Below are positions 11,761 through 12,306 of a stretch of 60,000 nucleotides of DNA, in pieces. The stretch's first letter is position 1. Every line of letters begins with the position of its first letter. Origin of the DNA: Mobula hypostoma (taxonomy: Eukaryota); NCBI RefSeq assembly GCF_963921235.1, contig NC_086107.1:114578001-114638000 (forward strand), given 5' to 3'. The notes beneath the pieces were generated by a model that saw nothing but the letters and a program-made list of their open reading frames with translations, ran no database searches and was not told the origin of the DNA. A program made the translations under genes and the position numbers.

Positions 11761-12306
11761 TAAACACAAAATACTCCGCAGATGCTGGGGTCAAAGCAAC
11801 ACTCAACACGCTGGGGGAACTCAGCAGGTCGGGCAGCATCCGTGGAAACGATCAGTCGACGTTTCGGGCCGGAAACCTTCGTCAGGACTGAAGAGGGAAG
11901 GGGCAGAGGCCCATTAAAGAAGGTGGGGGGAGGGTGGGAAGGAGAAGGCTGGTAGGTTCCAGGTGAAAAACCAGTAAGGGGAAAGATAACGGGGTGGGGG
12001 AGGGAACCGATAGGCAGGGAAGGTGAAGAAAGAATAGGGGAAAACACAATGAGTAGTAGGAGGCGGCGGAACCATGAGGGAGGTGATAGGCAGCTGGAGG
12101 GGGCAGAGTGACATGGGGATAGAGGTTCCCCTCCCCCACCCCTTTATCTTTCCCCTTACTGGTTTTTCACCTGGAACCTACCAGCCTTCTCCTTCCCACC
12201 CTCCCGCACCTTCTTTATAGGGCCTCTGCCCCTTCCCTCTTCAGTCCTGACGAAGGGTTCCGGCCCGAAACGTCGACCGATCGTTTCCACGGATGCTGCC
12301 CGACCT
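11761..12306. mobile_element. Fold-back Penelope-like (pLTR) insertion with two hammerhead motifs
   Basis: Inverted arms of about 180 bp (about 11826-12003 vs about 12128-12306); flanking direct repeat gcttgcctcaca(c/t)tg; CTGACGA..GAAACGTC core in each arm. Confidence 0.75.

What the first reader, a model, noticed from the sequence alone, without database searches (positions are those of the whole stretch)
11852..12279. Two minimal hammerhead-ribozyme motifs in a fold-back insert beside the FUS promoter
Seen: the plus copy at 12242-12279 reads CAGTC-CTGACGA-A-GGGT(TCCG)GCCC-GAAA-CGTC-GACCG. The minus copy at 11852-11891 reads TCAGTC-CTGACGA-AGGTTTCCGGCCC-GAAA-CGTC-GACTGA, with a perfect 6-bp stem I. 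Both show the CUGANGA / GAAA / GUC core, stems I and II, an extra A after A9, and a vestigial palindromic (ACGU) stem III. Known: Penelope-like elements carry such minimal hammerheads in their pLTRs, thought to cleave as dimers; a PLE ORF remnant sits at 21855-22060. Inference: one copy on each strand, about 0.8-1.2 kb upstream of the FUS ATG, could cut promoter-divergent RNA or RNF40 read-through RNA. Alternatively, the long fold-back hairpin may sequester both.
Basis: partly seen in the sequence, partly recalled or inferred. Interest (0 to 1): 0.72.

Follow-up and report, generated by a model that had tools for sequence, protein, structure and literature searches.

The report
Decaying Penelope fold-back insertion near FUS
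The two ribozyme-like motifs are real, but they sit in a hairpin-shaped scrap of what is very likely a Penelope-like jumping gene that landed about 0.8 kb upstream of FUS in a cartilaginous fish; each motif has lost one base pair, both are predicted to be zipped shut by the hairpin, and they likely do nothing for FUS.

Summary
The motifs are real (11852-11891 minus, 12241-12280 plus; 2 matches against 0 in 100 shuffles) and fit the published minimal hammerhead of Penelope-like elements (PLEs). They are one motif duplicated by a head-to-head insertion: a 363-nt minus-strand 3' end with a ~43-nt tail, plus a 186-nt inverted arm, between 15-nt target-site duplications, splitting an older repeat's reading frame. 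This architecture, including paired minimal hammerheads 100-700 bp apart on opposite strands, is published. The family is hugely amplified here (23,791 contigs laid from one run), and a second fold-back lies at 48.7 kb. Tails-out geometry means any read-through transcript makes the antisense arm first; folding puts 93-97% of the motif in the long duplex. Opposite strands rule out a cis dimer. The insertion is shared with one related organism, but conservation of the ribozyme there could not be tested. Earlier scan notes found the same kind elsewhere in this genome. Verdict: ordinary, likely inert retroelement relic.

The parts
11746..11760 (.). Left target-site duplication, 15 nt
   Evidence: Direct repeat D7, 14 of 15 identical to 12307-12321
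11761..12123 (-). Main body: 5'-truncated 3' end (pLTR region) of a high-copy element, 3' end pointing at FUS
   Evidence: Covered by thousands of family contigs in all 4 runs laid; PLE identity inferred from the hammerhead, tail and inversion
11761..11803 (-). Optional 'tail' (~43 nt), present on this side only
   Evidence: Many family contigs stop at 11804 with mixed A-rich flanks (loose ends: 193, 195, 142 and 22 in the four runs); summed depth about 0.65M in 11761-11801 against 2.1M in 11802-11842 in X1
11852..11891 (-). Minimal hammerhead, minus copy: 6-bp stem I intact, stem II with U-C mismatch at 11875; predicted cut 11858/11857
   Evidence: at 11875 the other letter carries 97% of depth in X1 and 98-99.8% in X5, X10, X13
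12124..12309 (+). Inverted, shorter arm (186 nt), no tail; its last 3 nt (GCT) overlap the right duplication
   Evidence: 95.7% identical to the reverse complement of 11823-12008, 8 differences in 187 columns
12241..12280 (+). Minimal hammerhead, plus copy: stem II intact (3 G-C, 1 U-G), stem I with A-C mismatch at 12278; predicted cut after 12274
12307..12321 (.). Right target-site duplication
11664..11760 (-). Downstream half of an older repeat's reading frame (VRQALEEPSTVV...) interrupted by the insertion
   Evidence: Translation; LINE-endonuclease nature is recalled, not shown by Pfam
12307..12503 (-). Upstream half of the same frame (...LPREFSAIILLAVYTPPQVNVRQ)
   Evidence: an uninterrupted paralogue reads through the same point at about 15037-15220 (73% DNA identity over 132 nt); one homologue, P0001, 64% identical, named as an uncharacterized ray protein
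11020..11032 (-). Context: FUS coding exon 1 (MASN, then GT donor) inside a CpG-rich stretch of about 10250-11750
   Evidence: an S/Y/G/Q-rich downstream exon at about 1941-1800 minus; the gene name rests on recalled exon structure

Best explanation
This is likely a dead-on-arrival, head-to-head insertion of a Penelope-like retrotransposon's 3' end, whose standard minimal hammerhead was copied twice by the inversion and is now likely inert. Shown: 15-nt direct repeats bound the insert; the two arms point tails-out; only the left arm has the tail; the insert splits an older repeat's frame; the family is very abundant; each hammerhead has one broken pair. Inferred: the element's endonuclease cut both target strands 15 nt apart and both 3' ends primed reverse transcription, one at the tail start and one 62 nt further in at a 3-nt match (GCT), and the two products were joined head to head. 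Predicted: a transcript crossing the insert in either direction makes the antisense arm first and folds into a duplex of about 186 bp that buries the catalytic core; with only one sense copy per strand, the ACGU/ACGU dimer helix cannot form in cis.
For: Duplication 14 of 15. Host frame ...PPQVNVRQ | VRQALEEPST... joins across it, with an uninterrupted paralogue in the window. Family: 23,791, 29,946, 11,339 and 1,777 contigs laid from the 4 runs; summed depth over the hammerhead bin is about 1.5 million against 8.27 on the unique flank in X1 (no copy number by the tool's own warning, but a ratio near 10^5); other family copies show opposite-strand joints, e.g. 11794/11857, 11829/11864. A second tails-out fold-back with a 14-nt exact duplication and a one-sided extension lies at 48674-48882. 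Literature: inverted 5'-truncated copy, one-sided 30-40 bp tail, head-to-head arrangement and TSDs (PMC3846280, PMC8557442, passages); dual min-HHRs about 100-700 bp apart on opposite strands, monomer inactive, dimer weak (PMC4209133); PLE protein nicks and extends both strands, starts at two internal sites, and the HHR cleaves only with protein and is dispensable for insertion in vitro (PMC11167929). Decay: 2 of the 8 arm differences fall in the 40-nt motif (1.7 expected for 40 of 187 columns), both break a pair, none is compensated. Folding: mean probability of long-range pairing over the motif 0.93 (plus read-through) and 0.97 (minus); stem II probability 0.000 in both; whole insert -422.7 kcal/mol, z -33.9. 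Isolated monomers pair the CUGACGA core with the CGUC cut site.
Against: No RT/GIY-YIG ORF was linked to this repeat here, so PLE membership rests on motif and architecture. All invariant core letters are intact in both copies and CpGs are retained. The left junction is shared with organism B (X5 record 26, 287 nt, 11521-11813), so the insert has persisted for some time. One run guessed to be RNA has a 161-nt exact contig at 11551-11711, a weak hint that the flank is transcribed. Nearest-neighbour energies ignore tertiary contacts and protein help.
Confidence: 0.9

Rival explanations
1. The insert matters as a long hairpin RNA, not as a ribozyme: divergent transcription from the FUS CpG island runs through it and yields a ~186-bp duplex that is edited or diced into small RNAs against this abundant family, or that alters chromatin next to the promoter.
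For: Very stable predicted duplex; position at the edge of the CpG-rich promoter; exact 161-nt contig at 11551-11711 in a run guessed to be RNA; Penelope inverted copies gave siRNAs matching the inverted regions in transgenic Drosophila (PMC3681739, passages).
Against: The contig stops 50 nt short of the insert, has no strand, and the run may be DNA; the same run has no cover over FUS exon 1. Fold-backs of this family are common (second one at 48.7 kb; opposite-strand joints), so this copy would be one of many sources.
Confidence: 0.06
2. One reading: the copies act as co-opted ribozymes that cut FUS-divergent or upstream-gene read-through RNA, as trans dimers with the many family transcripts or with help from PLE protein.
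For: Core letters intact; family abundant, so partners could exist; a PLE hammerhead was protein-assisted in vitro.
Against: Antisense arm made first and 93-97% sequestration; one broken pair per copy; modelled active dimers (-9.7 to -14.3 kcal/mol) are far above the best alternative folds (-28.5 to -35.5, though this may hold for intact family members too); no depletion of changes in the motif; upstream gene ends 15 kb away; in the anole no RNA-seq reads began or ended at the PLE hammerhead site.
Confidence: 0.03
3. The fold-back is an assembly artefact or a DNA transposon (MITE) with long terminal inverted repeats.
For: Long inverted repeats trouble assemblies (PMC8557442 passage); no contig spans the whole stretch.
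Against: Arms are unequal, differ at 8 places and are not terminal (61 extra nt on the left); 15-nt duplication and a clean split of the host frame; left junction bridged by a contig of organism B with 240 and 53 letters on the two sides.
Confidence: 0.01

Closest known systems
Minimal type-I hammerheads (min-HHR) in the pLTRs of metazoan Penelope-like elements (Cervera and De la Pena 2014, PMC4209133; main text parts 1-2 of 4, supplement 2 part 2 of 3 read)
   Same: Fits their consensus CUGANGAH-G..C-GAAAN-palindrome-NUH: extra base after A9, G10.1-C11.1, C-G at 15.2/16.2, GUC cut site, pyrimidine-rich 5' flank. They report dual motifs about 100-700 bp apart on opposite strands; here the cores are about 360 nt apart. 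Closest listed rows: Ixodes scapularis(1), Xenopus tropicalis(2).
   Different: Helix II is short (4 bp against about 5-8 in most of their rows) and helix I long (6 bp). No shark, ray or chimaera name was found in the 2 supplementary files that could be searched (file 1 not searchable). Both copies here have one broken pair.
Complex insertions of endonuclease-bearing PLEs (Arkhipova et al. 2013, PMC3846280; Craig et al. 2021, PMC8557442; passages read)
   Same: 5'-truncated unit, adjacent inverted truncated copy head to head, tail on one side only, target-site duplication.
   Different: No ORF in the insert; duplication 15 nt (8-10 in the rotifer examples); the inverted arm stops 19 nt short of the common tail-less end.
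Poseidon element PAc of the green anole (Frangieh et al. 2024, PMC11167929; parts 1-2 of 4 read)
   Same: Offers the mechanism: both strands nicked and extended, two internal start sites that define the tail, hammerhead in the pLTR.
   Different: Clade of this element not determined; the inner start of the right arm has a 3-nt match to the target, whereas PAc started without homology.
Non-LTR retrozymes (Li et al. 2026, bioRxiv 10.64898/2026.07.22.740005; part 1 of 5 and passages read, supplements not seen)
   Same: PLE-pLTR-related type-I hammerheads in vertebrate genomes, one chondrichthyan sampled.
   Different: Retrozymes are head-to-tail tandems that allow dimers; this is an inverted pair.
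Domesticated vertebrate hammerheads (Clec2 3' UTR, RECK intron; named in a figure legend of PMC6155905, passages read)
   Same: Hammerhead close to a host gene.
   Different: Those are, by my recall, complete, monomer-active and conserved across lineages; this is minimal, outside the gene, inside a high-copy repeat and drifting.

Membership tests
PLE minimal hammerhead (min-HHR) | CUGANGA, G12-A13-A14-A15.1 and NUH core | tested here: met
   Both copies: CTGACGA, GAAA, GTC
PLE minimal hammerhead (min-HHR) | Extra base between 9 and 10.1, G10.1-C11.1 pair, palindromic 15.2-16.2 with no helix III loop | tested here: met
   A; G-C; ACGU (consensus)
PLE minimal hammerhead (min-HHR) | Intact helices I and II | tested here: inconclusive
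   Each copy has one helix intact and one with a single mismatch; the family letter at 11875 restores the pair
PLE minimal hammerhead (min-HHR) | Covariation across family copies | tested here: inconclusive
   5 in-window copies: 0 of 10 pairs with a two-sided change, 1 one-sided. Family variants shown within the motif fall in loop 2 (11872, 11873), position 17 (11858) and the outer stem I base (11891), unphased; 33 rows not shown
PLE minimal hammerhead (min-HHR) | Self-cleavage as dimer or with PLE protein | not testable with these tools
   Only folding models
Endonuclease-bearing PLE insertion | Inverted 5'-truncated copy adjacent to the 5' end, head to head | tested here: met
   12124-12309 against 11823-12008
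Endonuclease-bearing PLE insertion | 30-40 bp tail on one side only | tested here: met
   About 43 nt, 11761-11803; family ends pile up at 11804
Endonuclease-bearing PLE insertion | Target-site duplication | tested here: met
   15 nt, 14 identical; splits a host frame
Endonuclease-bearing PLE insertion | Linked ORF with telomerase-like RT and GIY-YIG endonuclease | not testable with these tools
   No ORF in the insert; no genome held; no loci from collection scans; the 21.9-kb remnant gave no meaningful hit
Non-LTR retrozyme | Two or more head-to-tail units each with a hammerhead | tested here: not met
   Copies are inverted, on opposite strands
Domesticated host-gene hammerhead | Selective conservation of the motif at the orthologous site | tested here: inconclusive
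   Arm-to-arm comparison shows no depletion of change (2 of 8 differences in 40 of 187 columns); the relative's orthologous contig ends at 11813, before the motif
Rfam hammerhead families | Match to a curated covariance model | tested here: not met
   No hammerhead family among the 6 matches at E up to 10

The most novel reading that the evidence does not exclude
The insert has been co-opted at the FUS promoter edge: divergent transcripts fold into a ~186-bp duplex that feeds small-RNA or editing pathways, or the hammerhead cuts nascent RNA in trans with family transcripts and PLE protein, tuning FUS output in this lineage. It would be the first PLE ribozyme or hairpin shown to regulate a vertebrate gene.
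Probability: 0.05. Interest if true: 0.65.

Novelty: new member of a known kind. Interest (0 to 1): 0.12.

Why it matters
As one locus it matters little: it is one of a very large number of similar relics, and a family this dense will land near promoters by chance. Its modest value is as a clean specimen of PLE insertion mechanics (two-sided priming, one-sided tail, duplication that splits a readable host frame) and as a reminder that the tails-out layout should silence a hammerhead in any read-through RNA. It would matter if locus-specific cleavage or small RNAs were shown, since no in vivo role for PLE hammerheads appears in the papers read here.

Tried and rejected
Whole-genome search and file: none held. 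Pattern scans of metagenome contigs and viral contigs: 0 loci each. Rfam: no hammerhead hit. The 21.9-kb peptide: no Pfam family, no homologue among 3 candidates, and 3 phmmer hits that are repeat proteins matched over short stretches, judged spurious. Host-repeat peptides and P0001: no informative Pfam family. Sequencing runs: no RNA holder listed on record; no cover of FUS exon 1 in X13 and none of the unique flank in X10; these blanks are not used as evidence. X1's exact contig passes the left junction by only 26 letters, under the tool's 31-letter bar, so it is not counted as bridging. In-window covariation: 5 rows, too few. Paper searches for a shark or ray PLE hammerhead (1 paper, where 'shark' only describes the ribozyme's shape) and for exapted vertebrate promoter hammerheads (4 listings, none on point by title and abstract start) found no description of this family; the library is open-access only. 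Rejected: cis dimer (opposite strands), retrozyme (not tandem), MITE (unequal arms, tail, long duplication), link to the 21.9-kb remnant (9.6 kb away, other insertions between).

Full report
Observation. Both motifs are in the sequence. The plus copy spans 12241-12280 and the minus copy 11852-11891; they differ at 2 of 40 letters. A descriptor for core, stem II region and cut site matches these 2 places in the 60-kb window and none in 100 shuffles. Rfam has no matching hammerhead model at E up to 10. The motif fits the published consensus for minimal hammerheads of Penelope-like elements (PLEs): CUGANGAH, G10.1-C11.1, GAAA, palindromic C-G, NUH. The two differences are both harmful to the fold: the minus copy has a U-C mismatch in stem II (11875) and the plus copy an A-C mismatch in stem I (12278).

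Anatomy. The motifs lie in the arms of an inverted repeat, 11823-12008 against 12124-12309, with 8 differences in 187 columns. The whole insert runs 11761-12309 and is bounded by 15-nt direct repeats, 11746-11760 and 12307-12321, identical at 14 of 15. Read on the minus strand, the flanks are two halves of one frame...YTPPQVNVRQ and VRQALEEPST..., and a paralogue at about 15037-15220 reads through that point unbroken. So the insert landed cleanly inside an older repeat (a LINE endonuclease fragment by my recall; Pfam did not name it; its one homologue is an uncharacterized ray protein at 64%), at the outer edge of the CpG-rich FUS promoter region, 820-1248 nt from the ATG at 11032. FUS is recognised by MASN plus a donor site and an S/Y/G/Q-rich exon near 1941-1800; the gene names FUS and RNF40 rest on recalled features. 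The left, minus-strand part is 363 nt and carries the element's 3' end; the right, plus-strand arm repeats 186 nt of it and stops early. Both 3' ends face outward.

Family. No genome is held and three collection scans found nothing. I laid 4 of the 24 listed runs on 10900-12123, which holds the flank and the left arm only. The unique flank has depth 8.27 in X1, one contig with no letter differences and one gap; the hammerhead bin sums to about 1.5 million, from 23,791 contigs laid in that run. The tool warns that this is no copy number, but the ratio points to an extremely abundant family. At 11875 the other letter, which restores the stem II pair, holds 97% of depth in X1 and 98-99.8% in the other three runs, so the mismatch is private to this copy. 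Common variants shown within the motif lie in loop 2, at position 17 and at the outer base of stem I; 33 of 73 rows were not shown. Many contigs end at 11804 with mixed A-rich flanks, which marks 11761-11803 as an optional tail of about 43 nt. Other copies show opposite-strand joints at varied places. In the window, a second fold-back of a sister subfamily lies at 48674-48882 with a 14-nt exact duplication, a one-sided extension and its turn inside the hammerhead, and a third, clipped motif lies at 21154-21255. A 287-nt contig of organism B covers 11521-11813 and bridges the left junction; that organism differs at 18 letters and 12 gaps over about 650 nt of promoter. The insertion therefore predates that split, but the contig ends before the motif. 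In X13, guessed to be RNA, one exact 161-nt contig covers 11551-11711; it has no strand and does not reach the insert.

Mechanism. Published PLE insertions often have an inverted, 5'-truncated copy next to the 5' end, a 30-40 bp tail on one side and a target-site duplication, most often head to head (PMC3846280 and PMC8557442, passages). Cervera and De la Pena report paired minimal hammerheads about 100-700 bp apart on opposite strands, no cleavage by a monomer and low cleavage by dimers (PMC4209133). The anole Poseidon protein nicks and extends both strands, starts at two internal sites that define the tail, and its hammerhead needs protein and is not needed for insertion in vitro (PMC11167929). 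I infer that both target ends primed synthesis here, one at the tail start and one 62 nt inside at a 3-nt match, and that the products were joined head to head. Three of the 8 arm differences are listed as left-arm departures from the family (11875, 11913, 11914); the other 5 are not among the rows shown and are probably right-arm changes, which fits two near-identical arms that drifted after insertion.

Function. Because the tails face out, a transcript entering from either side meets the antisense arm first. Folding such transcripts to just past the sense motif gives mean long-range pairing of 0.93 and 0.97 over the motif and zero probability for stem II; the whole insert folds at -422.7 kcal/mol. 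Transcripts starting inside the spacer avoid the duplex, but stem II probability stays at or below 0.07, and isolated monomers pair the core with the cut site. A cis dimer is impossible since each strand has one sense copy. Modelled active dimers are 14-26 kcal/mol above the best alternative folds, though such models ignore tertiary contacts and I did not run an intact family copy as control. Changes are not depleted in the motif: 2 of 8 against 1.7 expected. The upstream ring-finger gene stops at about 27543, 15 kb away, with 28 candidate poly(A) hexamers between. Against my reading: the core letters are intact, the insert is shared by two organisms, the flank may be transcribed, and PLE membership lacks a linked ORF, since the remnant at 21855-22060 gave no valid hit.

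Rivals. A hairpin-RNA role has precedent in Drosophila, where inverted Penelope copies gave matching siRNAs (PMC3681739, passages); I put it at 6%. Artefact or DNA transposon: 1%.

Novelty. The kind and the architecture are published. My searches found no paper on this cartilaginous-fish family (open-access library only, one supplementary file and the preprint's supplements unseen). Earlier notes of this scan report the same motif and fold-backs many times in this genome and others; they are unchecked notes and were used as leads only. Verdict: a new member of a known kind, interest 0.12.

Noticed in passing
window 48674-48882: Second tails-out fold-back of a sister subfamily: 14-nt exact duplication (48674-48687, 48869-48882), extension on the left only, turn inside hammerhead stem II so that neither arm has the CUGANGA half.
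   Followed up: partly
window 20981-21780: Nested repeats: a third hammerhead copy (21154-21255, stem I 5' arm clipped, G-U at 10.1-11.1, loop CUCG) inside an element with inverted ends, itself inside another with inverted ends; hAT-type MITEs by my recall.
   Followed up: partly
window 21855-22060 (+): Degenerate frame with stops that looks, from recall, like the C-terminus of a PLE endonuclease; no tool confirmed it.
   Followed up: yes
window 11340-11560: FUS promoter region holds several CACGTG boxes and TGACGT-like sites in a CpG-rich stretch; the CpG-rich zone runs on into the old repeat at about 11560-11760.
   Followed up: no
window 11551-11711: Exact 161-nt contig (depth 20.8) in a run guessed to be RNA, upstream of the FUS promoter: possible divergent transcript or DNA carry-over.
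   Followed up: no
window 3173-4984 (+): 603-aa open frame with a reverse transcriptase domain (RVT_1, E 6e-34) in FUS intronic sequence, antisense to FUS.
   Followed up: partly
window 2368-2676 (-) and 12836-14329 (+): Two near-identical LINE ORF2 3' fragments in opposite orientation on either side of the FUS first exon.
   Followed up: no
window 12124-12130: The head-to-head junction begins with GGTTCCC; whether these letters also belong to the minus-strand body (an overlap like those described in rotifer PLEs) could not be settled.
   Followed up: partly
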